IMG/VR virus record: IMGVR_UViG_3300025889_000118
Location: 1 to 62,944 of that record
Strand: one strand, 5' to 3'
DNA length: 62,944 nucleotides
Source: a virus
Taxonomy: Duplodnaviria; Caudoviricetes
Position 1 is the stretch's first letter. Each line of letters opens with the position of its first letter. Below, piece by piece: positions 18,275 to 62,142 of the stretch. The position numbers and the translations under genes were made by a program. The notes beneath the pieces are model-generated. The model had not been told where the DNA came from. It ran no database searches and worked only from the letters and a program-made list of their open reading frames with translations.

Positions 18275-18407
18275 AAGGTTTTTCTACTTTTAAAGGCAAA
18301 AGACAATGCAATAATTGTGGAATTATCAAATATCAAGTTGGTAGAAATCACGAATACAAGGTTGATGGCGTTAGAACTTATTGTGGATATATGAGGTTGG
18401 TGAAAGA

Positions 18408-25455: not shown

Positions 25456-25585
25456 TGATAGAATGTAGTTGTAAAAGTATAAATGTAAATATAACAGAAG
25501 CAAAGTATAAAAAATCTTTACTTTGTTGTAAGTGTAGAGATTGTAGTAGGCTTTGGTATTACCAAACTTATACGGAGGAATGAAA

Positions 25586-32039: not shown

Positions 32040-32926
32040 CCGTTCAATTTTGGGTAGCATTGGATAGTCATGATAGAATAACTATCAATAATGCCCTTAG
32101 AGGAAAAGAATATCAGTGTTTAGAATGCAACGGTATTATGATACCGAAAAAAGGCGAAATAAAACAACATCACTTTGCCCATAAATCAGACTATTCTTGT
32201 AGTGGAGAAGGACAAAAACATCTTTACATTAAAGAATTGATTTTTGAAATTCTTCAATTAGACGAATATTTATTAAATGGTGCTAAAATATACATGGAAA
32301 AATCTTTCTTAGGATTAAGACCAGATATTCTAATAAAATGGAATAAAGATAGATATGTTGCGATAGAAGTTTGCGACACATCTGAATCTTCAAAAGATAA
32401 AAAGAAAATATATGGTAAAAATATGATTGAGTTCAAAATCAGTGATTGGAAAGAAGAAGAAATGACTAATCCTATTTACATTTTTAATTCTGTATATCCT
32501 ATTTTATTTAGAAAAATTTTCAACATAACTTTTGAAGAAAAACAAAGGAAACTTAAGGAGTTAAACTTAGAATATAATAAATTGTTAAGTGAATATAAGC
32601 AAGCCCAGTTGATTTTTAACAAAGACTTTTCTTATATTGATGGAAGTTGGGGAGATTTATCAAGAATACAAGATTGCCCACCCCGAACTTATGTAGCCAC
32701 TACTGATTGGTTTGACGATAAGCAGACAAATAAAATAGCAAAACTTACTTCTAAAAGTGGCAAAATTACTTGGGTAAAACTCATAGAATTTTTAGGTGAA
32801 GATGATTATAGAGATTATTATTCTTATGAAAAAATGGAGATTTCAGAAGAATCAAAATCCATTTTACATAAACAATATAATTACAACAAAGTTTGGGATG
32901 AATCTGATTGGGAGGAATTTGAATGA
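32036..32926 (+). CDS. CoiA-like Zn-finger PD-(D/E)xK nuclease
   Basis: YQCLEC...KKGEIKQHHFAH...H...K; RPDI...AIEV. Confidence 0.75.
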   Translation: MTVQFWVALDSHDRITINNALRGKEYQCLECNGIMIPKKGEIKQHHFAHKSDYSCSGEGQKHLYIKELIFEILQLDEYLLNGAKIYMEKSFLGLRPDILIKWNKDRYVAIEVCDTSESSKDKKKIYGKNMIEFKISDWKEEEMTNPIYIFNSVYPILFRKIFNITFEEKQRKLKELNLEYNKLLSEYKQAQLIFNKDFSYIDGSWGDLSRIQDCPPRTYVATTDWFDDKQTNKIAKLTSKSGKITWVKLIEFLGEDDYRDYYSYEKMEISEESKSILHKQYNYNKVWDESDWEEFE

Positions 32927-39712: not shown

Positions 39713-40309
39713 ATGTCTAATGTTTTAGCGTTAGACATAGAAACCAAAAATATGTCTTATGAAATAGGCGGTTTCTCTAATACTCATATGTTTCAAGTTT
39801 CTACTGTTGCTACATGGGATGGAGATATTGGAACTGTTTATTTAGACGAAGGTTTAGATAGTATCAACAAATCTAACTTAATTGTAAAATCTCTTAGAGA
39901 ACTTAAATATGATTTAGATGAACATTTTGAAAAAGGTGGCGTTTTATTAGGCCATAACATAGTTGCTTTTGATTTACCCATTTTAAGAGATTCATTAGAT
40001 ATTTACTGTATTAGAAAGTATTTGGATGAAAAGAAATATATTGATACATCTAAAGTTTTATTAAAAGAACATGGAGAAAGATTTCAATTAAAGAATTTAG
40101 TCAAATGCACAATGCAAGATGCTAAACTAATGGATAGTGCTGATGCTCCTAAACTTTGGAAAATGGGAAGATATAATGAAGTGGTGGATTATTGTATGAA
40201 AGATACACAATTAGTTTATGACCTTTGGAAATATGGTCAAGATAATGGAATTGTAAAAGCATTTTCAATAGAAGAAGAAATAGAAAAGAATTTGGAGGTA
40301 GATTGGTAA
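39713..40309 (+). CDS. DEDD/DnaQ-like 3'-5' exonuclease
   Basis: ALDIET, GHNIVAFDLP, YCMKDT. Confidence 0.85.
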   Translation: MSNVLALDIETKNMSYEIGGFSNTHMFQVSTVATWDGDIGTVYLDEGLDSINKSNLIVKSLRELKYDLDEHFEKGGVLLGHNIVAFDLPILRDSLDIYCIRKYLDEKKYIDTSKVLLKEHGERFQLKNLVKCTMQDAKLMDSADAPKLWKMGRYNEVVDYCMKDTQLVYDLWKYGQDNGIVKAFSIEEEIEKNLEVDW

Positions 40310-40455
40310 TGACTGGTTGGGAATGGTTCGGCTTGTTTGTTTTTATCGTCATCTTGATGCTTCTATTTTTTGCCGCTTTTGGAGGAACTTCGGTGACTGA
40401 TGAAAGCGTAGAAGAATACATGAAGCGTTTGATGAGTGAAAAAGGCGGAAAGTAA
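40309..40455 (+). CDS. Small membrane protein
   Basis: MTGWEWFGLFVFIVILMLLFFAAF; translated by hand. Confidence 0.6.
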   Translation: MTGWEWFGLFVFIVILMLLFFAAFGGTSVTDESVEEYMKRLMSEKGGK

Positions 40456-42903: not shown

Positions 42904-43281
42904 TTATTCTACCTCCAATGTTAAGTAAATTTGTAGCGTTTCTGTTGATGAAAATGGGCCAACTCCTGTAAAACTAATCCTATCTAACATATTTCCTGCA
43001 CTATCAAATATGCCCATTTCTCTAATAACTTGCCCTGTTATTGAACTTCCTACTTGTTCTACAAATACTTGAATTACATTTTCATTTGATTTTTCTGCTC
43101 GGATAGTTGGAGAAGCCCCGCTATCTACATCAATATCAAGTGCCATTGGACTTGTAGAATTACCACCCAAACCAATTTTTGCACTCCCCGCACTTATTGT
43201 TCCGCTTCCTCCAATACTGCCTCCGTTGATTAGGAGGGTTAGATAGTCTGCTAATTGTTTTCGTAGTTCATCAGTAATCAT
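42904..43281 (-). CDS. Tail fiber-associated / baseplate protein
   Basis: IGLG...IREMGIFDSAGNMLDR, typical of fiber N-terminal-like domains. Confidence 0.65.
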   Translation of the reverse strand: MITDELRKQLADYLTLLINGGSIGGSGTISAGSAKIGLGGNSTSPMALDIDVDSGASPTIRAEKSNENVIQVFVEQVGSSITGQVIREMGIFDSAGNMLDRISFTGVGPFSSTETLQIYLTLEVE

Positions 43282-46200
43282 AGTTCTTCCTCCAAGAGTT
43301 TAGTGATAGTGATGTTCCCACCAAATCCAAATGGGCTGGTGTTGGTATTTAACGGTGTTGAGAAACCAAGTAGAGCCCCAGTGCCTTCTCTTTTTCTTAT
43401 GAGCAAGTGCATTTCTTTTATTTTGAAATTATCAAAGAAATCAAAGGTGTTTTCGTTTTCGTTAAATTCTTTTTTACGGAGATAAGAATTAGTTTGGCTA
43501 TTAGAAATAAGAAGTTCTGAAAGAGCATCTTCTAAGCCTTTAATGTATTGGCCCAATTTCAATTCTATTGCCCCACTATAAGAATGACTCATTTCTAAAA
43601 CCAAGTAAGAATTTCTTTCTATCCCTGAAGCCTTCGATTCTAATTGAACTACATCTCCAACACTTAGCGTTTTAATTTCTGAATGGGCTAATTTAATATT
43701 TATTACGGTGTTGGCTTTAGTGTGTAAAACTAATAACCTATATGCTTCTTTATCTACATCTTCTTGAGTCGTTAATTTATTTTGAAAAACTTCTAAGGTC
43801 TTTTTTCCATTTGCTTTTATTTCTCTAAAGTTCTTTCTTACTGCTTTATGGCTTTGACCATAAACAGTCACATGATTAAAATAATCAAATTTAGACTTGG
43901 TTGTTTTTATTTCTGTAATATTGTCATCTGTAAAAGTATATTTAGAAATAAAATCAGTAGAATCATAATTTTGTATGTTAATATTTCCAGAAACATTTAC
44001 TAATTTTTTATCTTTTAGTCTTAACAAATAGTTAATTACATCAAATAAATTTCCTCCTTGAAAATCAGGAGCAGCGAAAATATTGTAATTTTCTTTTGTT
44101 AAAGTAAAATCAATATCATTTTCTATTAACAGTTCATTAACAGTTTCTTCTATTTCCTTTGTTATACTAACTGTTGTTCCAATAAGGGCTCTTTTTGCAT
44201 CGGGAGAAATCCCGCCATTTACTTCTAATTCAAATGTTTCTGAAAAAGAAACCACTCCATCTAATTTTTGCATTTCTCCAAATTCTAAGTAGTGTCCGAT
44301 ATTATCCTCATTATCTATTCCTTTTGCTGATGTAATCAAAACTGTTTCTCCATCAGATAGACAATATTCTCCATTAATTCCATTTAGAATAGTTTCTCTT
44401 CCAGTAGAAGTTTTTACAATAGTGTTTCCTTCTGCACTTAAATTATCCATATCTACTATAACATACATAGATTGCACCCCTTCTAAATTAGATAGGGTAT
44501 CTTGTGTTTCTGTTCTTTTGCCACTATTGAATGAAGGAAATGCCCCATACATATCATTAGAATCCATCAATTTAGTATATTCACTACTAAGAGTATTTAA
44601 GCGAATAGTAGTTGGGGAGTTATCCCAAAAACAAATAGGGTTAGGTTGCATAACTTTGTATGTGATATTAGCCAATTGTTCGTCTGTAATAAAATAACAC
44701 TTAGGATTTGTAGTAGTGACAGTCAAATCGTATTCATGAGAAACAATGTAAATGATTTCATTATCGTAAGGTGTCGCTTTATGAATACTTTCACTGGCAG
44801 TTGTCACATCGTTTTTATTGTAATATTTTCCTCTTTCTGCTGGAACTAAATAACACCCAGTTAAATCAATATTTTTTAAGAATTTATTATCTCCTATTAA
44901 ATCAAGAGAGTTATAATAAAGAGTGTTGTTATTTGTAGATTTAACTGTATTATTTGTGACCGAACTAAAAGTCACATGGGGTTTAAATCCTAAGTATGCC
45001 CCTACTGTTTTATCTTCATCTGTTGAATAAGTTTGTGAAGTATTAAAAGAAGGATAGGTTATGAAATTGCCATAATACGGCTCAGAAGAACCACTAAGAT
45101 TCATATATCTAAAAACATAGTTTAGAGAGGCATCTGTTAAAAATGGTGTTGTTGTTCCTTGAGATGAACTACCGCTTTCATTGGTGGTAAATTCTTTTAA
45201 AATAACAGTCTTAAGAGAGCCTATTTTTGTATCATTAGAAGAACTGCCTCCGCTATTAGAAGGCTCTAAATTCATGAAAAAATTAGCAAATTCTGTTTGA
45301 TAGTGTGTGAAGGGAGAAGTTGCAGCAACGCCCCAAGTATTACTACCGCCAGTAGAATAAAAATCACTAAATGTTAAAAGAGATTCTGTAATTGGGTCAA
45401 TAGAAGAATCTAAAAGATAATGTGATTGGAATTGGGTAAATGCTATTGGTAAAATTATAGTATTTTTACCGTAGTCTGTTCCTTTTTGCAAATTCTTGAA
45501 ATGTTGAGGTATGGTAGAAGGACTTCCCGAATCTATGTAGTAATTTTCCCACTTAGTAGGTGATGCTTGATTAGTCAAAAGCCCTTTTAGCATATGAATA
45601 TTATTTACTTCGGTATTTCCTCCTTCATCTAAAGTAAATAGCATTGTTTCTTCTACATCTCTACCAATTACACTTAATTTATTGCTAATTTCAGAATACT
45701 TGGCAAACCTAATGGTGTCTCCTGTGCCGTATTTTAACGCCCCGTTGTCTGTCAAGTATAGTGTATTAAAATTCAAAGTATCATTAGTTACATCTGTGGT
45801 AGATAGAGCCGTAACAACTCCAATAACTCTATTGTTATCTAAATCTAATATTACATCTTTAACTCCTACATTGTCAATAGTGCCGTTCATTTTTATTGTT
45901 GTAAGAGAAGGATAATTTACTACTGTTAAGTTAGTAGAACTACTATCTTGAACCAAGTAATTGTCAAAATAAGATAATTGAGAGGCTTCTATAACCCTAT
46001 CATTAGGGACATCGAATTCTGGATTTATTTGATTAAATGCCCAATCATATACTACATCTGTTAATCGCATAATTCCCATTCGTTTTAAATTAGAAAGAGT
46101 TTTATTGCTACTAAGAATATTAGAATGAATATAATCAGAATCTTTATTTGTTATTGTATTGGTATTCCCGATAGTTGCATCTTTTGTAGAACTTGTTGTT

Positions 46201-49200
46201 GTTTTTAGTGGGGCGTTCAAAGACAATAAACCATATCCTTCTAATGTTCTATTATCACTATTCATTAAACTATCCTTTCTTGTAGAACTATACAAAAGCC
46301 TATCAGAATTACAAAATAAAAACAATCTTGCCGCTTTAGAATCAATTTGATAAAATTTATCTTTTAATTCTAAAGGAGAAATAAAATCCGCATCTAAAGC
46401 ACCTGCAACTCTTTTGTTAGGAGTAATGGCTTGAATAATTGGGTTTGAATCTATGGCACTCACAAATTTTCTATCAACATAATTAGAACCAATAATCGGC
46501 ATAAAGCCTCTTTGCTCTATTGGATAATGATTATTTTTTGTAGTTCCAGTCTTACTTGATAATGATAGTCCTAATGGGGATTCGGGATTTCCTTTATAGA
46601 ATTCTGCATAATAATTTAAAATAGGAGTGGTTCCATAATACGGAATTAATCTTCCAGTATCAGTATCTTGTTTTAAAGAATATATTTTTTCTTTTCCTAT
46701 TTTTCCTTTTTCTATATTATCTAATCGAATAATATCCGCACCAAATTTTTCTTTGTATTTATATTCTGATATACCACCATGATGAGTTAAAAGTTGATAG
46801 TCAATTGGTAAGCGACTACTCCCTACCATGTTTATTATCTTACCACCGTGTAAATGAGCCCCGTTAGTTAAATGTAAGGTTCTTCTTTTTTTACCTGTGC
46901 TAATTTGAAAACTTTTTCCATTAGAATTAGCAGACAAATCTCTATCGAGATATATGTCTAAAAAGGCAGGAGAAGTATTTCTAATATTATAGCCAATAAA
47001 ATACCCAACAAATTCTTCTTCTATGTATAACGGTGTTCCTATTTCTAAATTATACTCACTAAATGAAGAAGCATCACAAAGAACATTTGGGTCTGTGCCA
47101 GTTGTTATAATGTCGGCTAAAGTAGTAAATGCAGAATCTTCGGAGTAAGGATTGATTTCTTCTCTACCTAAAGTTAGTGGCATATACGGTGCAAGTTTTA
47201 CTGTTTTTATGTTGTTATTTTCTTTAACTTCTAATACAGTAAAATCAATAAGAGTATTTACTATATCATCCTCAAAGGAACTTATTTCTAATTGAAAATC
47301 TAAATCAGTATCTATATTTTTAATTTTATTAATGTTAAATCCAGTAGCATTAGCATTATTATCTTCGCTAAGACCCACTAAGGTTTCGCCTTCTACTAAT
47401 GAATCAAAATCTCCTGTGAATTTGTAGCCATCTCTAAAAAAGAATCCTTTGTCACTTGCCCCTGTCAAACTTGTGACGCTATTTACTTTATTAGTGGAAG
47501 CAAGAGACTTATTAAGAATATACAATTTACTATTTTCTTTATACACTGTTTTGGCAGTATAAGTAGAAGAATAAGGGAAATCATGAAGGGTAGCGGTTGT
47601 GGAAGAAGTTGTTGCTCCATCTACTTGACCAATATAACCAAATTCACACCAAAGATGAGTATTGTGGGCTAAACTAACACTTGTAGAAAAAGTAATGGTT
47701 TTGCTATCAAAATCCCATGTGGCAGTAGTGCCTACTGTTGTTAAATCATTATATGGGCTATTGCTACTATAAATAATATCATGGCTAAATAAAGTATCTT
47801 TGTTTATGGTAATATCTATTAATTTCGATAAAGTATTTCTTCCCTTCAATTCAAAAATAGTTTGATTATTTTCTAAACTTTTATTTATTTCTTCTATCTT
47901 ACCATAAAATATTTCATAGTATAATAAAAATGCTCCTATTGCTCTTTCTAAGGAACTGTTGGAATCTAATAAATTGTTTTGAAAATCAATCGTTAGTAAG
48001 CCATATGTTTCATCTACATTTGTAATAAAAGAACCTATATTACAATAATAATTATTATACTGCTTAGTAGATAATATTCCACATAGCCTCGATAACTTAT
48101 CTCCGTCAAAATCAGAATTTGTATAGTAGGTAGAGTCTAAGGGGTTTAATCTTCTTCTATATACTTTATCTCCATCAGAAAAAGTAATTAAAGAAGTAGT
48201 GTTAGTAAAAACACCTTCACTTTCTAATCTACTATATTCTTTTAAGACAACATTTACATTCCCAGAAACCGAATCTACAATACAAACTCTATTGCCTATT
48301 TTTATTTCCATATTTGCTACAAAATAAAGATTAGGCTTTGGTAATAAAGAAGCCAAAGAGTAGGTTCTTGTTGCCGAATCAAATAATGATTCTATTTCAC
48401 CAACTTCTACCCACTCATTCAAATCGTCTTCTGCTATTTTTTGTTTTGCCATTAGCCTATCGTTATTAAATATCTTATTGCCTAAATTTTTAGTAATATC
48501 AACTAATTTAATTTCTGCAATACCGCTTTTGGCATCAAAAGTGTCTTCTATTGAAGCACTATAAGTATTAGGAATATAGTTATTATTTTCAGGAGAGTCA
48601 TTGTAAAATATGTATCTTTTATTACCTGTAAAATCTAAAGAAGAAACATCATCATTAGCATCTCTTCTTGCATTTACAAAACAATCGTTATAATCAGTAT
48701 AAGTTGTGTATGTTCCTGCTAAAACTGAACTTTCATTACTTGTAGCGGTATCGGGGTCATCTTTTTCTCTCAAATTATCAGTTAATTTAATGTTGTATGT
48801 GAATTTACTGTAATCAATTATTCTATTTCTGTAATCGCTAATAGTAATAAAAGTAGTATTGTCTCCTGTATTGAGAGTGACCGAAGTAGCAGTAGATACC
48901 CCGCTAATGTTTTCAGTTCTTAAGAAATATTTTGTATTGTGGTTAAGTTCTTCCTTTTTATCTAATTTAGAATCATAAAAGTAAAACAACGGCCTTGCAC
49001 ATATCATTTTAGAAACATCAGCCAATATTCCACAAGAAATGGCTAAAATATTATTTGATACAGTTGGCCCTTTAAATACCATAAATTTTACATCTTTTGC
49101 TATTTCATTTCCTAATCTTGGAGAAAATTCAAACTTATCTCCTAATTGGTCAGCACTCACTAATTTTGTAATCTTAGCAAAATGATGCATATTTGAATCA

Positions 49201-49541
49201 TCAGAATGAATTAGAACAAAGTAATCGTGGGTAGAAGGAACTCCTGCACTATCTACTGTAATTGAAGATAAGTCTAAGCCAATGTTATTAAATGCATCAA
49301 AACATCGAATAGAAAACCCATCAGTAGCATGTAAGTTAGAATATTCTCCTAATAGTGTTTTAGTAGAAACTGCCTCTTCGATAGTTGTTGTAGCAGTATC
49401 ATCTTCATAAACAATAGAAAATACCCTATTAGTTGAAGTAATAGCAGGACTAAAACTAAGCAAAGGATTAGTAGGAGTATCGTAATTATTGTTCGCTGGA
49501 CTGTTATATGAAGTCACTAAGCCCCCTAATGAAACCGTCAT
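43278..49541 (-). CDS. Large tail tip/hub protein (2087 aa)
   Basis: Size, position and a C-terminal hub-like segment (FNHVTVYG...LSVGDVVQL). Confidence 0.75.
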   Translation of the reverse strand: MTVSLGGLVTSYNSPANNNYDTPTNPLLSFSPAITSTNRVFSIVYEDDTATTTIEEAVSTKTLLGEYSNLHATDGFSIRCFDAFNNIGLDLSSITVDSAGVPSTHDYFVLIHSDDSNMHHFAKITKLVSADQLGDKFEFSPRLGNEIAKDVKFMVFKGPTVSNNILAISCGILADVSKMICARPLFYFYDSKLDKKEELNHNTKYFLRTENISGVSTATSVTLNTGDNTTFITISDYRNRIIDYSKFTYNIKLTDNLREKDDPDTATSNESSVLAGTYTTYTDYNDCFVNARRDANDDVSSLDFTGNKRYIFYNDSPENNNYIPNTYSASIEDTFDAKSGIAEIKLVDITKNLGNKIFNNDRLMAKQKIAEDDLNEWVEVGEIESLFDSATRTYSLASLLPKPNLYFVANMEIKIGNRVCIVDSVSGNVNVVLKEYSRLESEGVFTNTTSLITFSDGDKVYRRRLNPLDSTYYTNSDFDGDKLSRLCGILSTKQYNNYYCNIGSFITNVDETYGLLTIDFQNNLLDSNSSLERAIGAFLLYYEIFYGKIEEINKSLENNQTIFELKGRNTLSKLIDITINKDTLFSHDIIYSSNSPYNDLTTVGTTATWDFDSKTITFSTSVSLAHNTHLWCEFGYIGQVDGATTSSTTATLHDFPYSSTYTAKTVYKENSKLYILNKSLASTNKVNSVTSLTGASDKGFFFRDGYKFTGDFDSLVEGETLVGLSEDNNANATGFNINKIKNIDTDLDFQLEISSFEDDIVNTLIDFTVLEVKENNNIKTVKLAPYMPLTLGREEINPYSEDSAFTTLADIITTGTDPNVLCDASSFSEYNLEIGTPLYIEEEFVGYFIGYNIRNTSPAFLDIYLDRDLSANSNGKSFQISTGKKRRTLHLTNGAHLHGGKIINMVGSSRLPIDYQLLTHHGGISEYKYKEKFGADIIRLDNIEKGKIGKEKIYSLKQDTDTGRLIPYYGTTPILNYYAEFYKGNPESPLGLSLSSKTGTTKNNHYPIEQRGFMPIIGSNYVDRKFVSAIDSNPIIQAITPNKRVAGALDADFISPLELKDKFYQIDSKAARLFLFCNSDRLLYSSTRKDSLMNSDNRTLEGYGLLSLNAPLKTTTSSTKDATIGNTNTITNKDSDYIHSNILSSNKTLSNLKRMGIMRLTDVVYDWAFNQINPEFDVPNDRVIEASQLSYFDNYLVQDSSSTNLTVVNYPSLTTIKMNGTIDNVGVKDVILDLDNNRVIGVVTALSTTDVTNDTLNFNTLYLTDNGALKYGTGDTIRFAKYSEISNKLSVIGRDVEETMLFTLDEGGNTEVNNIHMLKGLLTNQASPTKWENYYIDSGSPSTIPQHFKNLQKGTDYGKNTIILPIAFTQFQSHYLLDSSIDPITESLLTFSDFYSTGGSNTWGVAATSPFTHYQTEFANFFMNLEPSNSGGSSSNDTKIGSLKTVILKEFTTNESGSSSQGTTTPFLTDASLNYVFRYMNLSGSSEPYYGNFITYPSFNTSQTYSTDEDKTVGAYLGFKPHVTFSSVTNNTVKSTNNNTLYYNSLDLIGDNKFLKNIDLTGCYLVPAERGKYYNKNDVTTASESIHKATPYDNEIIYIVSHEYDLTVTTTNPKCYFITDEQLANITYKVMQPNPICFWDNSPTTIRLNTLSSEYTKLMDSNDMYGAFPSFNSGKRTETQDTLSNLEGVQSMYVIVDMDNLSAEGNTIVKTSTGRETILNGINGEYCLSDGETVLITSAKGIDNEDNIGHYLEFGEMQKLDGVVSFSETFELEVNGGISPDAKRALIGTTVSITKEIEETVNELLIENDIDFTLTKENYNIFAAPDFQGGNLFDVINYLLRLKDKKLVNVSGNINIQNYDSTDFISKYTFTDDNITEIKTTKSKFDYFNHVTVYGQSHKAVRKNFREIKANGKKTLEVFQNKLTTQEDVDKEAYRLLVLHTKANTVINIKLAHSEIKTLSVGDVVQLESKASGIERNSYLVLEMSHSYSGAIELKLGQYIKGLEDALSELLISNSQTNSYLRKKEFNENENTFDFFDNFKIKEMHLLIRKREGTGALLGFSTPLNTNTSPFGFGGNITITKLLEEEL

Positions 49542-56500: not shown

Positions 56501-57817
56501 TCAATCAATAAAATAAACAATGTCTGATTTACCACCAAGTATATCCATAGCCTCTTTTCTAAGAATATCATATTTCTCTTTTGTGGAAATATTAGCACCT
56601 GTTTCGGTAATTAATACGCTTTGGTCATCATGTCTAATTAATTCCGAAGCAACTAATTTTGTGGCTGCTTCGTGAACTGCTGCGGGAACTCTTGAATTAC
56701 CTGCAATATAAGAAACAAAGATTGAGTTTCGAGTATGGTATGGATAATCTTGCAAAAAGAAAATTCTGCCCTCTTCATTGAGTAGCCAATAATCTCCTGT
56801 TCTTTTCATGTCTTCTTTATCAGTAAATCTTGTCACACCACATACAGTAGGAACAGAACTATTTGATGCAATAAATGTTCCAGTTCCACTTCCTGTATTA
56901 GTAGCGGATTGACTCATAGTAATCGTAGTCGAATCAACAATTGCAGAAATAGTAGTTCCAGTAGGAATGTGATTGTTATTATCTTCTATTTCCATACCAA
57001 CTGCTAATTTACTGGAATCTGCCACTGTCAAAGTCGCACTTGCATTAGTGTGGGTGATTGCTTGTTGGGTCTTTATTTTAACTACACAATCCGACCCATC
57101 ATCCCCCGAAAGTAGGGATGAAACGAGGATTTTTGCTCCATTTCCTTCCTCTTTTTGAGCAAAGAAAAAGTCTGAAAGCGACAATTGAGAACTTGTTAGA
57201 CTTTTTGGTGCATTAGCACCTGTATATTGAGAAGTTGATGGAAATTCTTCATTAATTAAAGCAACAATATCATTAACAGTTGTTTTAACTCCAAAGGTAT
57301 TACAAAATTCATCATTCCCTAAATTGTTTAATGTGTCTTCTGCAATCATTTCAAATTCAACGCCACTATTCGGTAATTGTAAAACAATAGAATAAATATC
57401 TCTAAAATTATCTAATAATTCTATTTGTGCTTGAGCAGAAGCAATCTCTTTATATCCACTACCAGACCAAACTTGTAGAGAAACAATCTTTTGAACTTTC
57501 ATTTGCCTTAATTGAATAAAACCAACATAACCGCCATAAAGCGTCATTCCAGGCCTATTTGTGTATTCAAAGTTATGAACTTCTTTTTTAGTTATTATTG
57601 GTCTATAACTTCTTTTAAGTTTATCATCAACTATTCCTTCTACTCTTTTTATTATGTTTCCAACTTGGGCTCTTGTTGGATAAGTTGCAGAAGCATCAAA
57701 ACGAGGAACTTGTAATAAATCAGCAACTTGTATATAATCCGTATAATAGCCAATACCTTCTGAATAGTCAGGAGTTCCTGCTAAAGTATAATCACTTGGG
57801 GAGGAAGTAATTGACAT
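56501..57817 (-). CDS. Head-tail adaptor-like protein with insertions
   Basis: YTDYIQVADLL...; YIAGNSRVPAAVHEAATKLVA. Confidence 0.7.
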   Translation of the reverse strand: MSITSSPSDYTLAGTPDYSEGIGYYTDYIQVADLLQVPRFDASATYPTRAQVGNIIKRVEGIVDDKLKRSYRPIITKKEVHNFEYTNRPGMTLYGGYVGFIQLRQMKVQKIVSLQVWSGSGYKEIASAQAQIELLDNFRDIYSIVLQLPNSGVEFEMIAEDTLNNLGNDEFCNTFGVKTTVNDIVALINEEFPSTSQYTGANAPKSLTSSQLSLSDFFFAQKEEGNGAKILVSSLLSGDDGSDCVVKIKTQQAITHTNASATLTVADSSKLAVGMEIEDNNNHIPTGTTISAIVDSTTITMSQSATNTGSGTGTFIASNSSVPTVCGVTRFTDKEDMKRTGDYWLLNEEGRIFFLQDYPYHTRNSIFVSYIAGNSRVPAAVHEAATKLVASELIRHDDQSVLITETGANISTKEKYDILRKEAMDILGGKSDIVYFID

Positions 57818-59175
57818 CAAATACCCCCTTTAACTCCTTCATAACCTAATCCAATAATTTTAGTTCTTATTTCGTTAAGATGGTCATTCATCTTATCTTT
57901 CTTTATTTCACCTGCTTTGGAATAATAACTGAAATCATAATTACCAAATATGGCGACTCTTGTTTCTATTGCTAATTTAATATTCTTAAACGGTTTCATT
58001 AACAAAGCATCTGTTTTAGAGGTATCTATTTTTTCTTTCAAAGCAGTTTTCCATTCTTTTTTATTAGGAGAAGGAATACCAACATTGAAATTTAATTCAT
58101 ATGCTTTCAATTCTTTTAGATTTTCAAGGCTATCTAATAAATTATTTAAGTAATCCAATCTTTGAATATTTACTATTACTTCCTTAGTAATGTCTTCACT
58201 ATAAATATTGATTTCTTCTGATTTTAAATCTTCTAAATTATTAAAGACTTCATTAAAAATAAAATTAGTATCTATATTGAATTCTTTACCCATATTTAAA
58301 TTAATAACTAATTCTCTTAAAGGAGAAAATTCTGTTTTTATTTCTGCTTTTCTCGAAGCAAATTCAGAAGGTCTTGAAGTTCTTGTATATTTTTGACCAT
58401 AAGGAACAAACCCTCCACTTGCTATACCTAATTCTCTTCTAATGTAATCTACATAATATTCTCTAAATTTATCTGAAAATTTATTTAACCCATCTGGAAT
58501 TTCGGGAATATAACCAACAATGTCTTTTTTTTCCTCAGTTTCGGTCTTAATAAAATACTTAATATTCAATTCTTTTACAAATGTAGTATTTGCAAATAAT
58601 ATTTCTTTAGTTAAACCAATTTCTTCCACTACTTTTAATTGTTCAAGTGCAGACTTCGTGAACTTTCCAATATTTATACCAAAGGTTATTGTTCCCATTT
58701 CTTCTAAATACACTGGGTCTAAATTCTCTTGTTCTAAAAAAGTATCTAAATCAAAATCGGGTAAATTTTCTAAATCCCTACCAAGTTCTAAAGAAGTTGC
58801 ACCAACCAATTGAAAGTATTTTTTACTATCCGTAAAAGCATCAAATAAACTTATATTTTTTGCTTTCTCAATTCTTTCTTCTTTATTTTCTCCCCTCAAG
58901 TATTCAGACCAAGCCTCGACATCTTCTTTGTATGCTTGTAAAGATAAATCTTTGTCTTTAAGAGCCTCTTCTAAAACTTCTGAAAGTTTTTCTTGTATTT
59001 TTTGTCTATCAGAACCCGCACTCTTAAGTGCTTTATCCAATACATACTCAAGTTGTGCTTCATCCATATCTTTAGAAAGATATTCTATAAAGTCATTTTT
59101 TATTAATTTTGTAGTATTTGGATTAGAAAAAGATTTCATTCCGTTCCACTGAATAGAAATATCTTCTTCGACCAA
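57817..59175 (-). CDS. Hypothetical protein
   Basis: 452-aa charged ORF. Confidence 0.75.
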   Translation of the reverse strand: MVEEDISIQWNGMKSFSNPNTTKLIKNDFIEYLSKDMDEAQLEYVLDKALKSAGSDRQKIQEKLSEVLEEALKDKDLSLQAYKEDVEAWSEYLRGENKEERIEKAKNISLFDAFTDSKKYFQLVGATSLELGRDLENLPDFDLDTFLEQENLDPVYLEEMGTITFGINIGKFTKSALEQLKVVEEIGLTKEILFANTTFVKELNIKYFIKTETEEKKDIVGYIPEIPDGLNKFSDKFREYYVDYIRRELGIASGGFVPYGQKYTRTSRPSEFASRKAEIKTEFSPLRELVINLNMGKEFNIDTNFIFNEVFNNLEDLKSEEINIYSEDITKEVIVNIQRLDYLNNLLDSLENLKELKAYELNFNVGIPSPNKKEWKTALKEKIDTSKTDALLMKPFKNIKLAIETRVAIFGNYDFSYYSKAGEIKKDKMNDHLNEIRTKIIGLGYEGVKGGI

Positions 59176-59187: not shown

Positions 59188-59832
59188 TCACATTAACCAT
59201 TTAGCCCAAGCAGCACCTTTTTGAATTGCTGAACCCAAACCTAATCCGCTACTTGGAGGTTCATAACTCATTTGACCAGTTTGAGGGTCAATCCAATATG
59301 GGCGACCATATCCATCTGTGCCGTTTGGTGGGATAGGGTAGCCACTACCATTATTCATAGCACCATGCATTTGGTTGTATTGTTGAGTATTGCCAGTTAA
59401 TCCTGCAATAGCCATCCCTGCCGATGGTTGCCCTCCATTAAATCCTTGTGATTCGAGATATTGTTGTTTAGCCATCTTTCTTTGATTAATAACTTCTGCA
59501 TTTAACGCAGCCCCAAGAATCTTTTGAATATCTAAATCAATGTTTTCTTGAGTAATTCTTTCGTATTCTCTCATACATTCTGAATTTAATTCAATAGCAC
59601 CGCCCGAAGTAGTGAAAGATAACTTAGAAAGCATTTGTGAAACTACTCTTTCTATTACATCTTCCATTAGTTGCTCTATCGCTTCAAAAAACATCTGTCC
59701 GTGATATTGAAAAAATTCCTCAACATGATTGTCTTGTAAAGATAATAGATTATTTACAGTTTTAAAATTAGCATCATTTTGTTGCTGAACTGCGTTCAAT
59801 ACTGTTCCATTACTTGTTCCTAATATGCCCAT
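59188..59832 (-). CDS. Hypothetical helical protein with Q/G-rich region, WW-like motif and amphipathic C-terminus
   Basis: YGRPYWIDPQTGQMSYEPP; LGSAIQKGAAWAKWLM. Confidence 0.8.
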   Translation of the reverse strand: MGILGTSNGTVLNAVQQQNDANFKTVNNLLSLQDNHVEEFFQYHGQMFFEAIEQLMEDVIERVVSQMLSKLSFTTSGGAIELNSECMREYERITQENIDLDIQKILGAALNAEVINQRKMAKQQYLESQGFNGGQPSAGMAIAGLTGNTQQYNQMHGAMNNGSGYPIPPNGTDGYGRPYWIDPQTGQMSYEPPSSGLGLGSAIQKGAAWAKWLM

Positions 59833-59834
59833 AT

Positions 59835-60497
59835 TTATTCCTCTTTTTGTTCTTCGGGTAGTGGCTTAGTCACCTTAACTCCTTCTTGTATCATTAGGTA
59901 ATTCAATCTATCTGTTAATATATTGATTTCCCCGACTATTTCAATCGCCTCATTCGTGGCTGACCTATTATCACGCATGGTAGGTGGCTTAATAAAATAA
60001 CCTACTGATGTAAGAGAAGCAATATCAGTCTTACTTAAACTTGTAATTGGGCCACTTTTTAGTATATTAGGAACTCTCGGTTTAAATCCCTTATACTCCA
60101 AACCATGTTTTTCTGCCAACATCTGTTGGTCTAACACTTCTAATTGATTGAAAATAGAAGCATGTTTAGGACAATATGTTCCAAAAAGAGGCCGACCCTT
60201 TACTACTTTTTCTAATGGTATTGGTGGTCTTAGATAATCCCCTGCTTCCCAAATGTGATGAAATCCACATACAACACATCTTTCTTTCATGTTGAATTTT
60301 TTTCCAAATTTTATAAAAAGAAATTTTTTGGGTTCGGGTAATAGGATTTTAATTAATTCCTGTTTTTGTTTTTTTGGCTTAATCGCCATTGGTTTATATT
60401 CTGCTACAACTCCTGTTGCCCTTGCTTGTTGAATTGGATTCAAAAGCGGGTTAAATTGTTGTGGGGCAGTTTGTCCTATAATTTGTTGTTGATACAT
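59835..60497 (-). CDS. Hypothetical Zn-binding protein
   Basis: CVVCG...YCPKH; Q-rich N-terminus. Confidence 0.8.
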   Translation of the reverse strand: MYQQQIIGQTAPQQFNPLLNPIQQARATGVVAEYKPMAIKPKKQKQELIKILLPEPKKFLFIKFGKKFNMKERCVVCGFHHIWEAGDYLRPPIPLEKVVKGRPLFGTYCPKHASIFNQLEVLDQQMLAEKHGLEYKGFKPRVPNILKSGPITSLSKTDIASLTSVGYFIKPPTMRDNRSATNEAIEIVGEINILTDRLNYLMIQEGVKVTKPLPEEQKEE

Positions 60498-60500
60498 TTT

Positions 60501-60845
60501 TCATTCCTCTTTATATAAGTCTCGAAATTTATTATTAAATTTAGGTCTTTCTTTATATTCATCAATTATGTTAGACAAGTGTTCCTCAAAATCAAAATCT
60601 TCATCTTTTATTTGGTCTAAAGTAAGTTTAGCATAATATTCTTCAACTATTTCATTAAATGCTCTTTCTATTTCTTCATCTGGTATTTCTGGACTAAGAT
60701 GTTCATACTTCGTTTCTTCAAAATTACCTATTGTCATTGAGGCTAATGGATATTCGTTATGAATCCAAAGTTCTTCATTAAATGGTTCATTTTGCATTCT
60801 ATCTAAAATATCATCAATATCTTTTTTTAATATTCTTTTCCACAT
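60501..60845 (-). CDS. Acidic hypothetical protein
   Basis: ORF within the operon. Confidence 0.65.
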   Translation of the reverse strand: MWKRILKKDIDDILDRMQNEPFNEELWIHNEYPLASMTIGNFEETKYEHLSPEIPDEEIERAFNEIVEEYYAKLTLDQIKDEDFDFEEHLSNIIDEYKERPKFNNKFRDLYKEE

Positions 60846-60850
60846 AGTAA

Positions 60851-61513
60851 TCAGTAGTCCTTTATCATTGTAAGTATTCCTTTATACACCATTTCTGAAT
60901 CCGATTTTGCCGAAACTATATACTTGAAACAAGGTATTCCTTTATCATTTAATTTTCTCATTCCATAACTAAAGGGCTCAAATATTTCATGTTTCTCTAT
61001 TGGTTTGTCATTTTTGTATTTCTCTCCCCAAATATCATATTTATTTGCCCAAATACCTATTGCTAATGGATAGTCTATATCTTTTTTCTTTTTACCATCC
61101 GACCAAACATTAGAAGTCACTGTATCTACTAAATATTTCCATGCTACTTGGTGGTCTAAATTTGAAGTATTATCTAAGTGTCTATGGTCTATCATAAAAA
61201 TAATATATTTTGGTTTTCGGGTTTTCATGTCTTTTTCCCATTCTTTCCAATAGATTGCTTCTCCTCCTAAATCAGCACTCCTAATTGTATGAGAATCCCC
61301 ATCTAATTTAATATTTTTTCTTGTGGCTCTACCTCTACCAACTGTTCTATCATTTATTTGTGGAACTTCTCCTCTTGTTCTTAATTGGTGACTCATAGTT
61401 GTCTTTCCAACCATTGTTGCTCCATATATTCCAAAATTAATAGCATGAACTTTTTTATAAAACCCAACAACTGCTTCGGTTATTAGTATTGCGAAGCCCG
61501 TCATTAATGACAT
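60851..61513 (-). CDS. Ras-superfamily (Arf/Sar-like) small GTPase
   Basis: G1 GATMVGKT, G2 RTVG, G3 DLGG, IFMID, G4 NKYD, G5 SAK; N-terminal hydrophobic helix. Confidence 0.9.
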   Translation of the reverse strand: MSLMTGFAILITEAVVGFYKKVHAINFGIYGATMVGKTTMSHQLRTRGEVPQINDRTVGRGRATRKNIKLDGDSHTIRSADLGGEAIYWKEWEKDMKTRKPKYIIFMIDHRHLDNTSNLDHQVAWKYLVDTVTSNVWSDGKKKKDIDYPLAIGIWANKYDIWGEKYKNDKPIEKHEIFEPFSYGMRKLNDKGIPCFKYIVSAKSDSEMVYKGILTMIKDY

Positions 61514-61526
61514 ACATATCTCCCAC

Positions 61527-61745
61527 CTAATGTTTGAATAATCCTTTAATAGAATCAATAATCCATCCCATTATATTTATATCAAAAACTCCCAAAATAT
61601 TTCCTATAAGCAAGGCAGAAAGAGTTGCACAAGAACCCCAAAACCATGCTCTCATTTTCAAAAAGAAAACATCAGCAGAATGGGCTCTTTGTTGATTATA
61701 CACAAAGTCGTTATCAGAAAATCCCATTAAATCAGTCAAGCCCAT
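61527..61745 (-). CDS. Small membrane protein
   Basis: TM segment plus amphipathic C-terminus; AGGTGG RBS. Confidence 0.75.
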   Translation of the reverse strand: MGLTDLMGFSDNDFVYNQQRAHSADVFFLKMRAWFWGSCATLSALLIGNILGVFDINIMGWIIDSIKGLFKH

Positions 61746-61755
61746 TTAACCACCT

Positions 61756-62142
61756 TCATTGTAATGTGGCTAAAAACTCACTCCCAACGGTGTTCTCTTC
61801 ATCTTGAACTCTCGGTGCATAGAAAGCAGGAACACCAAATTGTTTTGCACTTTCTCGCATCTTTTGGCGTTGTTGCTCATCTCTTGATTTTCTTTCCCAA
61901 TATGCTTGTATTTTTCTATCAAGAAGCCACATTTCTATTTTATCATTCAAAGCCAAATCAAATAGGGCTTTCATGACCATAATAGACCCTATTGTTCCTA
62001 ACCCAAACAAAAATGAATGGGCTAATGGCCCATAAGGAAATCCTGTTCCAAATTGAGCGTAAGCAAATACATTTGCTCCGCTTAATGCTCCGACAAAAAG
62101 AATAGTCATTACTAATCTTGTATCTTGATTTAATGCTGCCAA
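61756..62142 (-). CDS. Membrane protein (2 TM plus charged tail)
   Basis: TTG start after AGGTGA; two hydrophobic helices. Confidence 0.8.
   Translation of the reverse strand: MAALNQDTRLVMTILFVGALSGANVFAYAQFGTGFPYGPLAHSFLFGLGTIGSIMVMKALFDLALNDKIEMWLLDRKIQAYWERKSRDEQQRQKMRESAKQFGVPAFYAPRVQDEENTVGSEFLATLQ

What the first reader, a model, noticed from the sequence alone, without database searches (positions are those of the whole stretch)
59188..62142. Arf-like small GTPase in a membrane-protein cluster within the late operon: candidate egress or membrane-remodelling system
Seen: complete G1-G5 motifs, with Arf/Sar-type DxGG (followed by E rather than the catalytic Q) and an N-terminal hydrophobic/amphipathic helix. 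Two small membrane proteins lie upstream. Downstream are an acidic ORF, a Zn-binding Q-rich protein and a helical protein with an amphipathic C-terminus. The block sits between head-associated and neck genes, and no holin/endolysin is recognisable in the window. Established: Arf/Sar GTPases use N-terminal helices to bind and bend membranes, a small GTPase has been linked to vesicle formation in haloarchaea, and lysis by archaeal tailed viruses is poorly understood. Inference: a GTP-switched lysis, vesiculation or assembly-site module.
Basis: partly seen in the sequence, partly recalled or inferred. Interest (0 to 1): 0.87.

Follow-up and report, generated by a model that had tools for sequence, protein, structure and literature searches.

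The report
Membrane-anchored Arf-like GTPase module in magroviruses
Abundant ocean viruses of marine archaea carry a conserved late gene set built around a membrane-tethered, Arf/Sar-like GTP switch with small membrane proteins and a zinc protein, which may control how these viruses act on the host membrane, perhaps at release.

Summary
Window 60851-61513 (-) encodes a 220-aa small GTPase with complete G1-G5 motifs, DxGGE in G3 and a 20-residue N-terminal hydrophobic helix. Family profiles match Arf/Arl/Sar proteins over their full length. The best full-length match is PDB chain 8OUN, deposited with the Asgard ArfR structures. The window protein itself passes no Pfam threshold.

The window is a magrovirus. 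The gene order m128 (2 TM), m72 (1 TM), GTPase, Zn protein, h214 is kept in essentially every related contig. A sister lineage, with GTPases 30-35% identical, keeps GTPase + Zn protein + h214-like protein + small membrane proteins. There the set lies about 21 kb from the capsid gene, upstream of the terminase, so it moves as a unit.

The GTPase, m128 and h214 are more conserved than the capsid protein. The acidic ORF is a variable insert, not part of the module. No cellular homologue was found, no GenBank phage has one, and no paper mentions it.

The function is inferred, not shown. I read it as a membrane-anchored GTP switch acting late at the host membrane, most likely in egress. A role in virion assembly or genome ejection remains a real rival. 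It is not an ArvABC operon by HMM tests.

The parts
61756..62142 (-). m128: small integral membrane protein with two hydrophobic segments (from about residues 9 and 43) and a charged 60-aa C-terminal tail. It is the first gene of the module.
   Evidence: ORF. Hydropathy scan. Present upstream of the GTPase in 78 of 78 group-1 loci with enough flank. Median identity 77-79%. No Pfam or PHROG family below E 0.03.
61527..61745 (-). m72: small membrane protein with one hydrophobic segment (from about residue 38) and an amphipathic C-terminal 16 residues (moment 0.51).
   Evidence: Present in 78 of 78 loci. Median identity 71-72%. Its stop lies 13 nt before the GTPase ATG.
60851..61513 (-). Arf/Sar-like small GTPase, 220 aa. 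N-terminal hydrophobic helix (residues 3-22), then a Ras-superfamily G domain with G1 GATMVGKT, G3 DLGGE, G4 NKYD and G5 SAK. The mechanical ORF runs to TTG 61558, but the start is ATG 61513.
60501..60845 (-). ac114: acidic 114-aa ORF (pI 4.5). It is a variable accessory insert in the slot between the GTPase and Zn genes, not a conserved module member.
   Evidence: Found only in the near-identical contigs plus 1 of 77 other loci. The slot holds more than 400 nt in 19 of 77 loci and 40 nt or less in 47. pI.
59835..60497 (-). zn220: basic 220-aa protein with a Q-rich N-terminus and a CxxC...(G-R)...TYCPxH putative zinc site. It is the conserved partner gene of the GTPase in both virus lineages.
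   Evidence: Alignment A3 invariants C74, W83, P92, T107, Y108, C109, P110, H112. hhalign to the sister-lineage protein gives probability 95, E 3.5e-8. Co-occurrence is 64 of 65 and 80 of 80 loci. The GTPase lies upstream in 71 of 71 loci found through the Zn protein. No Pfam, PDB-sequence or fold match.
59188..59832 (-). h214: acidic, Q/N/G-rich protein with a helical N-terminal half, a WW-like GRPYWIDxxGQMSYEPP stretch and a conserved C-terminus AIQKGAAWAKWLM. It is the last conserved gene of the module.
   Evidence: Present in 61 of 61 loci. Median identity 77-78%. Weak PHROG hit phrog_14074 'virion structural protein' in 5 of 23 family members, best E 7.6e-4. hhalign to the sister-lineage p210 gives probability 49, E 1.7e-4. 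Weak WW hit at E 0.029.

Best explanation
The block is a virus-specific late gene module of Magrovirales, the tailed viruses of marine group II archaea. Its core is a strongly diverged Arf/Sar-like small GTPase held at the cytoplasmic face of the host membrane by an N-terminal hydrophobic helix.

Shown here:
- The protein has a GTPase fold and complete nucleotide-binding motifs.
- It carries an N-terminal hydrophobic helix.
- It is tightly packed in an operon with two small integral membrane proteins, a zinc protein and a Q/N-rich helical protein.
- This set is conserved, and moves as a unit, in two deeply diverged virus lineages.

Inferred:
- The GTPase works as a nucleotide-dependent switch on the membrane, together with m128 and m72.
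- The zinc protein is its regulator or effector, by analogy with the zinc-finger partners of Arf-type GTPases.
- The module controls a membrane event late in infection. I take this to be disruption or remodelling of the host membrane for virion release, with the holin-like small membrane proteins as the executing parts and the GTPase as the timer or organiser.

I put about 0.6 on 'membrane-anchored GTP switch acting with these partners' and about 0.3-0.35 on egress specifically. The confidence figure below is for the whole statement.
For: GTPase identity:
- G1-G5 motifs are present in 82 of 82 group-1 ORFs. In group 2, 80 of 80 have G1 and G4, and 76 of 80 have a DxGGx G3.
- The AF2 model has pLDDT 87 and pTM 0.84, with a Ras-like fold after a helix at residues 3-22.
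- Foldseek against the PDB gives 1407 matches at E<=0.001. The top ones are Ras, Rab and Arl2 at E about 1e-9.

Arf-likeness:
- In the family profile search of the PDB, the full-length matches among the top hits are Arf-family proteins. These are 8oun_A at E 3.4e-10 over profile positions 15-228, Arl3 at 7e-9, and the sister chain 8oum_A. The Arl8, Sar1 and most Arf1 rows are partial, as are the Ras and EngA matches.
- 8OUN is cited in the Asgard ArfR structure paper (listing; passages read).
- Pfam Arf is the top family, above its cut-off and over its full length, for 3 distant family members: P0042 at 57 bits, P0055 at 36.5 and P0035 at 27.
- A nearly invariant Trp lies 11 residues after the G3 Asp and aligns with the Trp of 8oun.

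Membrane link:
- The N-terminal helix has hydrophobicity 0.64-0.66 and moment 0.22 and is followed by KK.
- Distant relatives carry longer N-terminal hydrophobic stretches.
- m128, m72 and the GTPase are the only hydrophobic-segment proteins of the late strand apart from the tape-measure-like protein.

Operon and synteny:
- Gaps between genes are 2-13 nt.
- Group-1 co-occurrence is 78/78, 78/78, 64/65 and 61/61. Group-2 co-occurrence is 72/72, 68/72, 80/80, 66/80 and 73/80.
- The reciprocal check through the Zn protein gives 71 of 71.
- The Zn proteins of the two lineages are homologous (hhalign probability 95).
- In group 2 the module lies about 21 kb from the capsid gene in 4 of 4 records. 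In G002 it lies about 7.5 kb upstream of the terminase. It is therefore not tied to head or neck genes.

Selection: GTPase median identity is 78-79%, against 67-68% for the capsid protein, in two differently ascertained locus sets.

Background:
- A review states that the egress machinery of archaeal tailed viruses is uncharacterised (passages of PMC10791045).
- A euryarchaeal small GTPase, ArvA, with an N-terminal amphipathic helix and a Zn-ribbon operon partner, drives vesicle formation (passages of PMC10927574).
Against: - No experiment or tool result shows membrane binding, GTP hydrolysis or an envelope phenotype.
- The window protein itself matches no Pfam family at E<=1 and only TIGR00231 at E 0.008, below its cut-off.
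- The canonical catalytic Gln is Glu in 82 of 82 group-1 proteins, so hydrolysis may be atypical or absent.
- The small membrane proteins match no holin family. They are far more conserved (71-79%) than holins usually are; that comparison is from recall.
- The membrane proteins of the two lineages show no detectable homology.
- OapB and OapC HMMs find nothing in 5 viral records, and zn220 has no ArfGAP or other Pfam hit.
- h214 has a weak but repeated hit to a 'virion structural protein' PHROG, which points towards the virion rather than lysis.
- Other small hydrophobic ORFs exist on the early strand and could be the real lysis genes.
- In group 1 the module sits in the middle of the structural genes, an unusual place for a lysis cassette.
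Confidence: 0.4

Rival explanations
1. Virion morphogenesis or genome-delivery module. The small membrane proteins and h214 would be internal or ejection proteins packed in the virion and inserted into the host membrane at entry. The GTPase and Zn protein would be assembly factors, for example organising capsid or neck assembly at the membrane.
For: - In group 1 the block lies between the capsid and tail-tube genes.
- Conservation equals or exceeds that of the capsid protein.
- h214 and 4 relatives (5 of 23) hit phrog_14074 'virion structural protein', best E 7.6e-4.
- The nearest named Atlas clusters for h214 carry T7_gp14 (23% of members) and P22_gp7 (17%), at scores 0.79-0.80. That is below the tool's 0.9 line, so it is a lead only.
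Against: - In group 2 the whole set sits about 21 kb from the capsid gene and upstream of the terminase.
- T7_gp14 and P22_gp7 HMMs find nothing at E<=10 in 5 of 5 viral records.
- From recall, no tailed-virus virion is known to need a small GTPase.
- The tape-measure-like protein already carries five hydrophobic segments, as expected for siphovirus-type membrane penetration.
Confidence: 0.25
2. Host-takeover module. A viral Arf-like switch would re-programme a host membrane process, such as vesicle budding, division, secretion or S-layer insertion, or exclude superinfecting viruses. It would not itself open the envelope.
For: - It has the same membrane-anchor and synteny evidence as the main reading.
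- There is precedent that a euryarchaeal small GTPase drives vesicle formation and that viruses might exploit it. The authors of PMC10791045 offer this as speculation (see also PMC10927574).
- Small GTPases in viruses are otherwise seen in giant viruses of eukaryotes: 49 of the top 50 BFVD fold matches, with 1 unnamed. From recall, those are thought to manipulate host trafficking.
Against: - It is co-oriented with and packed among late structural genes in both lineages.
- It is extremely conserved, whereas exclusion and takeover genes are usually variable (recalled generalisation).
- No close cellular homologue from which a mimic could derive was found. The only genome hits are 2 short contigs of one MAG that look misbinned.
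Confidence: 0.15
3. A housekeeping-type GTPase of the Era/EngA/ribosome-associated kind, or a generic P-loop NTPase, that sits next to membrane genes by accident.
For: - The top PDB profile hit by E-value is EngA, at 3.6e-11.
- MMR_HSR1 is the Pfam family matched by most family members, 10 of 17.
- NCBIfam lists EngA, Era and YlqF for a few members.
Against: - The EngA matches cover only the N-terminal half of the profile, in several pieces, whereas Arf-family matches are full length.
- Arf outscores MMR_HSR1 in the members that pass thresholds.
- The protein has no KH or second G domain and carries an N-terminal membrane helix.
- Synteny with the membrane and Zn genes is near-absolute.
Confidence: 0.03

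Closest known systems
Arf/Arl/Sar1 family small GTPases, including the Asgard ArfR proteins (PDB 8OUN/8OUM)
   Same: - Same G-domain fold and the same G1-G5 layout.
- DxGG in G3, followed 11 residues later by a conserved Trp.
- A TxG-type G2.
- An N-terminal membrane-directed helix.
- Full-length profile matches to Arf-family chains: 8OUN, its sister chain 8OUM and several Arl3 chains.
- Pfam Arf is the top hit for three distant family members.
   Different: - The window protein is below every Pfam cut-off.
- Its helix is 20 residues long, very hydrophobic and of low moment, so anchor-like rather than amphipathic.
- Glu replaces the catalytic Gln in all 82 group-1 proteins.
- It has extra loops of low model confidence after the P-loop helix and before G4.
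- A conserved DHRH motif follows strand 4.
- It is encoded only by viruses as far as searched.
ArvA-ArvB-ArvC (OapA/B/C) vesiculation operon of Euryarchaeota
   Same: - A small GTPase with an N-terminal membrane helix.
- It is encoded in an operon with a zinc-ribbon-type protein.
- It occurs in the euryarchaeal world.
- ArvA is required for vesicle budding (PMC10927574 passages).
   Different: - OapC and OapB HMMs find nothing in 5 magrovirus-type records at E<=10; G001 was searched for OapC at E<=1.
- The viral operon has integral membrane proteins and h214, which the passages read do not describe for the Arv operon.
SR-beta, the Arf-like GTPase of the SRP receptor with an N-terminal transmembrane anchor (recalled, not from a call)
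   Same: An Arf-clade G domain tethered by an N-terminal hydrophobic helix. Pfam SRPRB is among the weaker hits of 4 of 17 family members.
   Different: The SRPRB scores are below its cut-off. No SR-alpha-like partner is present. The context is viral and late.
Small GTPases (Rab, Ras, Ran) of giant eukaryotic viruses
   Same: They are virus-encoded Ras-superfamily GTPases and are the best viral fold matches.
   Different: Those viruses infect eukaryotes, and from recall their genes are recent captures of host Rab, Ran or Ras genes. Here the host is an archaeon, the virus is tailed and the family has no close cellular relative. No prokaryotic virus appears among the top 50 BFVD matches: 49 are giant viruses and 1 is unnamed.
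Phage holin/antiholin lysis cassettes
   Same: Two small proteins with 2 TM plus a charged tail and 1 TM respectively, encoded side by side in the late operon. In the sister lineage the cassette lies upstream of the terminase gene, as the lambda lysis genes do (recalled).
   Different: No holin family matches, and no endolysin-like enzyme is adjacent. Conservation is unusually high. A GTPase and a Zn protein are not part of any described holin system (recalled).

Membership tests
Ras-superfamily small GTPase | G1 GxxxxGK[ST], G3 DxxG, G4 NKxD and G5 SA-type motifs, in that order | tested here: met
   The window protein has GATMVGKT, DLGG, NKYD and SAK. All four are present in 82 of 82 group-1 ORFs. 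Invariant columns are G31, G36, K37, D81 and G84.
Ras-superfamily small GTPase | Six-stranded G-domain fold | tested here: met
   AF2 pLDDT 87 and pTM 0.84. Foldseek against the PDB gives 1407 matches at E<=0.001, topped by Ras, Rab and Arl2, with TM-score on the target 0.60-0.70.
Arf family (Pfam PF00025) | Scores above the Pfam Arf gathering cut-off (22.3 bits) | tested here: not met
   The window protein has 0 Pfam families at E<=1. P0001, 61% identical, scores 16.8 bits. The cut-off is passed only by distant family members P0042 (57.2), P0055 (36.5), P0035 (27.2) and P0053 (24.5).
Arf family | N-terminal amphipathic helix that is released to the membrane on GTP binding (the defining feature per bioRxiv 10.1101/2024.02.28.582541; passages read) | tested here: inconclusive
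   A helix at residues 3-22 exists. It has hydrophobicity 0.64-0.66 and moment 0.22, which is transmembrane-like. Group-2 helices are Gly/Ala-rich with moment 0.13-0.28. Nucleotide-dependent release cannot be tested here.
Arf family | Interswitch toggle (two-residue register shift of strands 2-3) | not testable with these tools
   The model shows a strand 2-3 hairpin at residues 64-82. There is only one conformation and no nucleotide states.
Arf family | DxGGQ with catalytic Gln in G3, and a Trp in switch II | tested here: inconclusive
   The Trp is nearly invariant (W92) and aligns with the Trp of 8oun. The Gln is replaced by Glu in 82 of 82 group-1 proteins. In group 2, 54 of 80 have Gln, 15 Glu, 6 Asp, 1 His and 4 no motif.
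ArvA/ArvB/ArvC vesiculation system | Operon partners of the OapB (PF09846) and OapC (PF09845) families | tested here: not met
   Six-frame HMM search found 0 of 5 records for OapB at E<=10. For OapC it found 0 of 4 records at E<=10, and none in G001 at E<=1. Haloferax volcanii rang among the controls.
ArvA/ArvB/ArvC vesiculation system | GTPase groups with ArvA in a phylogeny | not tested
No archaeal genome handle was reached.
ArfGAP-type zinc-finger regulator (for zn220) | Match to the ArfGap domain, a CxxC-x16-CxxC finger with a following Arg (motif recalled) | tested here: not met
   zn220 has 0 Pfam families at E<=1. Its site is CxxC-x31-CxxH. There are no PDB sequence matches with E<0.7 and no fold matches with E<4 (the model has pLDDT of only 67).
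Holins (for m128 and m72) | Small protein with 1-3 TM segments and a charged C-terminus in a lysis cassette, and a match to a holin family | tested here: inconclusive
   The topology fits: 2 TM plus a charged tail, and 1 TM. No Pfam or PHROG holin family matches; the best hits have E 0.039 to unrelated families. No adjacent lytic enzyme is present.
T7 gp14 / P22 gp7 ejection proteins (for h214) | Match to PF24072 or PF25688 | tested here: not met
   0 of 5 viral records match at E<=10 for either family. The only support is an Atlas feature lead at 0.79-0.80.

The most novel reading that the evidence does not exclude
Magroviruses release their progeny with a GTP-timed membrane system of a kind not described for any virus of bacteria or archaea. 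A membrane-anchored Arf-like GTPase, regulated by a dedicated zinc protein, would organise or trigger two holin-like membrane proteins (and h214) to open or bud the host membrane. This would be the missing egress machinery of archaeal tailed viruses. It would also show that Arf-type membrane GTPases operate outside Asgard archaea and eukaryotes, carried by viruses.
Probability: 0.3. Interest if true: 0.9.

Novelty: new variant of a known kind. Interest (0 to 1): 0.72.

Why it matters
[quoted passage not shown] How archaeal tailed viruses leave their hosts is stated to be completely uncharacterised (PMC10791045, passages).

This module gives that question a concrete, bounded candidate. It has five conserved genes, and three of them are membrane-directed. 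It includes a GTP switch whose activity can be assayed and mutated in vitro and in model archaea, even though the natural host is uncultured.

Whatever its function, it is a virus-only, strongly constrained branch of Arf-like GTPases in viruses of Thermoplasmatota-type archaea. From the abstract text returned, the Asgard ArfR group of prokaryotic Arf-family GTPases is reported as almost exclusive to Asgard archaea. The family therefore bears on the history of membrane-remodelling GTPases. It is also a handy, highly conserved marker gene for Magrovirales.

Tried and rejected
- Complex prediction of the GTPase (residues 21-220, with GTP and Mg) and zn220 (residues 30-205): verdict 'no answer', score 0.00. 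This is not evidence either way.
- Structure of zn220: mean pLDDT of only 66.8. Foldseek against the PDB gave 4 matches, all with E>4. The profile search of PDB sequences gave nothing below E 0.7.
- Atlas search for zn220: best score 0.84 with no named family. For h214: best 0.82, with T7_gp14 and P22_gp7 clusters at 0.79-0.80. HMM searches did not confirm these.
- ArvABC membership was rejected at the HMM level.
- Single-sequence searches of the window GTPase gave no Pfam family, PHROG 'guanylate kinase' at E 0.36, and PDB KRas at E 1.1. These are too weak alone. The family profile was needed.
- Context of the distant relatives P0042, P0035 and P0013: no locus found in viral contigs. P0042 is a singleton on a 1578-nt contig. 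Their origin stays unknown.
- Route to host (Poseidoniales) genomes through the viral thermosome gene: no relative found in genome contigs. Host ArvA and Arf content could therefore not be examined.
- GenBank phage collection: tblastn with the GTPase gave no match.
- Similarity between 11 group-1 tail-region and late-operon proteins (fibre to p452) and the group-2 loci: none at E<=1e-4. What lies upstream of the group-2 module is not identified.
- RNA libraries: 4 runs from 4 studies hold short contigs (about 150-260 nt) identical or nearly identical to parts of h214, zn220, ac114, m128/g105 and g112. No contig covers 60940-61924. Contigs cannot show transcription, and DNA carry-over is possible. 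I do not use this as evidence of expression or of its absence.
- One search was a badly set literature search (any term). It told nothing and was replaced.
- Supplementary tables of the magrovirus papers are closed. They may list a GTPase annotation that I could not see. JGI itself names 3 of the 120 listed relatives 'GTPase SAR1 family protein'.

Full report
WHAT THE WINDOW IS. The window carries an archaeal-type replication block on the + strand. It includes a thermosome, UvrD-like helicase, ATP-dependent ligase, RFC-like ATPase and family-B polymerase. A long late operon on the - strand runs from the window's end down to about 40.7 kb. It holds a tail tube gene (PF18906), a tape-measure-like gene and tail-fibre-like genes. 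An identical viral contig (L001) continues upstream with a second ATP-ligase, an S78 prohead protease and an SU10-type major capsid protein. Two ligases, one embedded in the structural module, together with a thermosome and a near-complete replisome, are what Philosof et al. describe for magrovirus groups A and B (PMC5434244, passages read). I therefore treat the window as a magrovirus of that type.

THE OBSERVATION.
- The GTPase ORF is listed from TTG 61558. Relatives mostly align from residue 13-16. ATG 61513 is preceded by GGTGGGAG and follows the m72 stop by 13 nt. The protein is therefore 220 aa (60851-61513).
- It has G1 GATMVGKT, G3 DLGGE, G4 NKYD and G5 SAK, and so do 82 of 82 group-1 ORFs examined.
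- m128 has two hydrophobic segments and m72 has one.
- ac114 has pI 4.5.
- zn220 has three Cys in all, arranged CxxC...CPxH.
- h214 is 18% Q/N.

IS IT A GTPase, AND OF WHICH KIND? Alone, the sequence is too diverged. It matches no Pfam family at E<=1, has a PHROG 'guanylate kinase' hit at E 0.36, and matches KRas at E 1.1 in the PDB. Exhaustive phmmer against 1.84 billion representatives found only 64 proteins at E<=0.001, many of them fragments.

A 17-sequence alignment of full-length hits (A1) has invariant P-loop and G3 residues. As a profile it matches 1195 PDB sequences at E<=1.
- The lowest E-value is EngA (3.6e-11), but only over the N-terminal half and in pieces.
- The matches that span the whole profile are Arf-family proteins. 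These are 8oun_A (E 3.4e-10, positions 15-228), its sister chain 8oum_A and several Arl3 chains (about 7e-9 to 1e-7).
- Arl8, Sar1, most Arf1 and the Ras rows are partial.
- 8OUN is cited in the paper that describes Asgard ArfR structures (listing; passages).

Pfam on the 17 members one by one gives Arf for 7 of them, best E 1.9e-15. Arf is the top family, above its cut-off and full length, for P0042, P0055 and P0035.

The AF2 model (pLDDT 87, pTM 0.84) shows a helix at residues 3-22 followed by a Ras-like G domain. It has two low-confidence loops. Foldseek finds Ras, Rab and Arl2 at E about 1e-9.

A nearly invariant Trp lies 11 residues after the G3 Asp and aligns with the Trp of 8oun. From recall, this spacing is typical of Arf, Sar and G-alpha proteins and not of Ras.

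So 'Arf/Sar-like' is the best description of what it resembles. Membership of the Arf family is not established. The window protein is below the Pfam cut-off. The catalytic Gln is Glu in 82 of 82 group-1 proteins; in group 2 it is Gln in 54 of 80, Glu in 15, Asp in 6 and His in 1, and 4 show no motif. The N-terminal helix has hydrophobicity 0.64-0.66 and moment 0.22, which is the profile of a membrane anchor rather than an amphipathic helix. More distant relatives have even longer N-terminal hydrophobic stretches, so membrane tethering looks like a family trait.

DISTRIBUTION.
- 299 IMG/VR contigs encode a relative of the window protein. The best 80 are 76-100% identical, on contigs up to about 97 kb, apart from one 184.7-kb record (L076).
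- A second set of 127 contigs (group 2) encodes GTPases 30-35% identical to it, on contigs up to 118 kb.
- The capsid proteins of group 2 are 40-47% identical to the group-1 capsid protein in 4 of 4 records searched. Group 2 is therefore a sister lineage of the same virus order.
- In a 5.8-billion-protein collection, the alignment finds 563 proteins at E<=1e-5. The 120 listed are 217-229 aa long, on contigs of at most about 99 kb. Three of them are named 'GTPase SAR1 family protein' by JGI and the rest are unnamed or hypothetical.
- Among 185,579 species genomes, only two short contigs matched. Both belong to one MAG labelled Maricaulis, which I read as misbinned virus contigs.
- GenBank phages give no match.
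- Among viral fold predictions (BFVD), 49 of the top 50 matches are small GTPases of giant eukaryotic viruses and 1 is unnamed. No prokaryotic virus appears.

SYNTENY. In group 1:
- m128 and m72 lie directly upstream in 78 of 78 loci with enough flank.
- zn220 lies downstream in 64 of 65 loci and h214 in 61 of 61 (table).
- In 80 loci found independently through the Zn protein, the GTPase lies upstream on the same strand in 71 of 71 with enough flank.
- ac114 is not conserved. It appears only in the near-identical contigs and in 1 of 77 others. The slot it occupies is empty (40 nt or less) in 47 of 77 loci and holds other ORFs in the rest.

In group 2 the order is:
- a protein of about 190 aa with one hydrophobic segment (72 of 72 loci),
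- a membrane protein of about 85 aa (68 of 72),
- the GTPase,
- a Zn protein of about 320 aa (80 of 80),
- a Q/M/G-rich protein of about 210 aa (66 of 80),
- a two-TM protein of about 85 aa (73 of 80).

Profile-profile comparison of 8 group-1 families against 6 group-2 families gave two pairs above probability 20. These are zn220 with the group-2 Zn protein (95%, E 3.5e-8) and h214 with p210 (49%, E 1.7e-4). The membrane proteins gave nothing.

The place of the module also differs between the lineages. In group 2 it lies about 21 kb from the capsid gene. In record G002 it lies about 7.5 kb upstream of the large terminase, which is followed by the portal, protease and capsid genes. The set therefore travels as a unit and is not bound to head or neck genes, but it stays on the late strand.

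CONSTRAINT. Across 77 loci chosen by GTPase similarity, median identities to the window proteins are as follows:

| Protein | Median identity |
|---|---|
| GTPase | 79% |
| m128 | 77% |
| h214 | 77% |
| p170 | 76% |
| protease | 75% |
| m72 | 71% |
| capsid protein | 68% |
| p439 | 65% |
| zn220 | 64% |
| g105 | 39% |
| p452 | 32% |

That set favours the GTPase by the way it was chosen. I therefore repeated the count on loci chosen by the Zn protein. The result was GTPase 78% (minimum 74%), m128 79%, h214 78%, m72 72%, zn220 70% and capsid protein 67%. The module's core proteins are thus at least as constrained as the capsid protein.

MECHANISM. Shown:
- a G domain with intact nucleotide-binding motifs,
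- an N-terminal hydrophobic helix followed by two lysines,
- operon packing with two integral membrane proteins and a zinc protein,
- co-inheritance over deep divergence.

Inferred: the GTPase sits on the cytoplasmic face of the host membrane, next to or in complex with m128 and m72. An invariant Glu in its helix (E13) might contact their membrane segments, which is speculation. It switches between nucleotide states, and zn220 regulates or reads that switch. Arf-type GTPases are commonly paired with zinc-finger GAPs (recalled). ArvA is paired with the Zn-ribbon protein ArvC, which its authors suggest is a GAP (PMC10927574, passages).

For the process controlled, I favour egress, for four reasons.
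- These are the only integral membrane proteins of the late operon apart from the tape-measure-like protein.
- Their topologies are holin-like.
- In group 2 the cassette lies just upstream of the packaging genes.
- No egress system is known for archaeal tailed viruses (PMC10791045, passages).

The evidence against is real.
- No holin family matches.
- No lytic enzyme is adjacent.
- Conservation is atypically high for holins.
- Other small hydrophobic ORFs exist on the early strand.
- h214 and four relatives give a weak hit to a 'virion structural protein' PHROG (5 of 23 members, best E 7.6e-4).

I therefore keep a morphogenesis or genome-delivery reading at about 0.25 and a host-takeover reading at about 0.15.

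COMPARISON WITH THE KNOWN. The protein works like, and most resembles, Arf/Sar/Arl GTPases. It cannot be filed as a member, because the Pfam threshold is not met, the helix is not amphipathic by my measure, and the Gln is replaced.

The gene set resembles the ArvA-ArvB-ArvC operon in logic: a membrane-helix GTPase plus a Zn protein. It is not that operon, because OapB and OapC HMMs find nothing in five viral records while ringing in the Haloferax control.

No paper in the searchable library holds both 'magrovirus' and 'GTPase'. The main texts of the three magrovirus genome papers I queried contain no 'GTPase', and the same is true of the archaeal Caudoviricetes survey. Their supplements were closed and may list automatic annotations.

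The existence of the gene is thus visible in automatic annotation, but the module, its conservation and its membrane context appear undescribed.

VERDICT. This is a real, strongly conserved, virus-only gene module. Its centre is a membrane-anchored Arf/Sar-like GTPase. Its function is not shown. The best-supported reading is a GTP-switched membrane function late in infection, with egress as the leading specific candidate. Novelty: a new variant of a known kind (a small-GTPase membrane switch) in a context where none has been described, namely tailed viruses of prokaryotes. Interest 0.72.

Noticed in passing
window 60501-60845, and the equivalent slots in L004, L020 and L071: The gaps on either side of the GTPase gene are insertion hot spots for unrelated accessory ORFs. 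More than 400 nt lie between the GTPase and Zn genes in 19 of 77 loci, and between m72 and the GTPase in 11 of 82. ac114 is one such insert.
   Followed up: partly
window 30378-32039 and 32036-32926 (+): A family-B DNA polymerase match ends at the end of a 553-aa ORF. A 296-aa ORF follows, overlapping by 4 nt. This may be the split polymerase reported for one magrovirus subgroup (figure legend in PMC5434244).
   Followed up: no
window 18381-19898 (+): A virus-encoded thermosome (Cpn60_TCP1, E 1e-40). No close relative was found in 185,579 species genomes by the pattern search.
   Followed up: partly
L161 and L162 (genome contigs): Two different magrovirus-type contigs (GTPase 78% and 63% identical to the window's) sit in one MAG labelled Maricaulis, an alphaproteobacterium. 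This is most likely a binning error, not a bacterial host.
   Followed up: no
G002:C1:77343-78530: The capsid-protein match in this complete 115.5-kb group-2 record contains one in-frame TGA. It could be a sequencing error, a frameshift, an insertion or recoding; this was not examined.
   Followed up: no
L163 8948-9796 (G002): An HMGL-like gene (E 1.5e-25) lies about 6.4 kb upstream of the group-2 GTPase module. It is a possible auxiliary metabolic gene.
   Followed up: no
window 43278-49541 (-), and L084 3-6083: Giant ORFs of 2087 aa in the window's tail region and 2026 aa directly upstream of the group-2 module. They have no Pfam family and no detectable similarity to each other by tblastn.
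   Followed up: partly
window 57817-59175 (-): p452 is an acidic protein just after the module. It is highly variable in sequence (median 32% identity, found in 15 of 77 loci) and in length (452-822 aa in relatives).
   Followed up: no
window 12264-12449, 25553-26011 and 40303-40455 (+): Three further small ORFs with hydrophobic segments on the early strand. They are alternative candidates for membrane or lysis functions.
   Followed up: no
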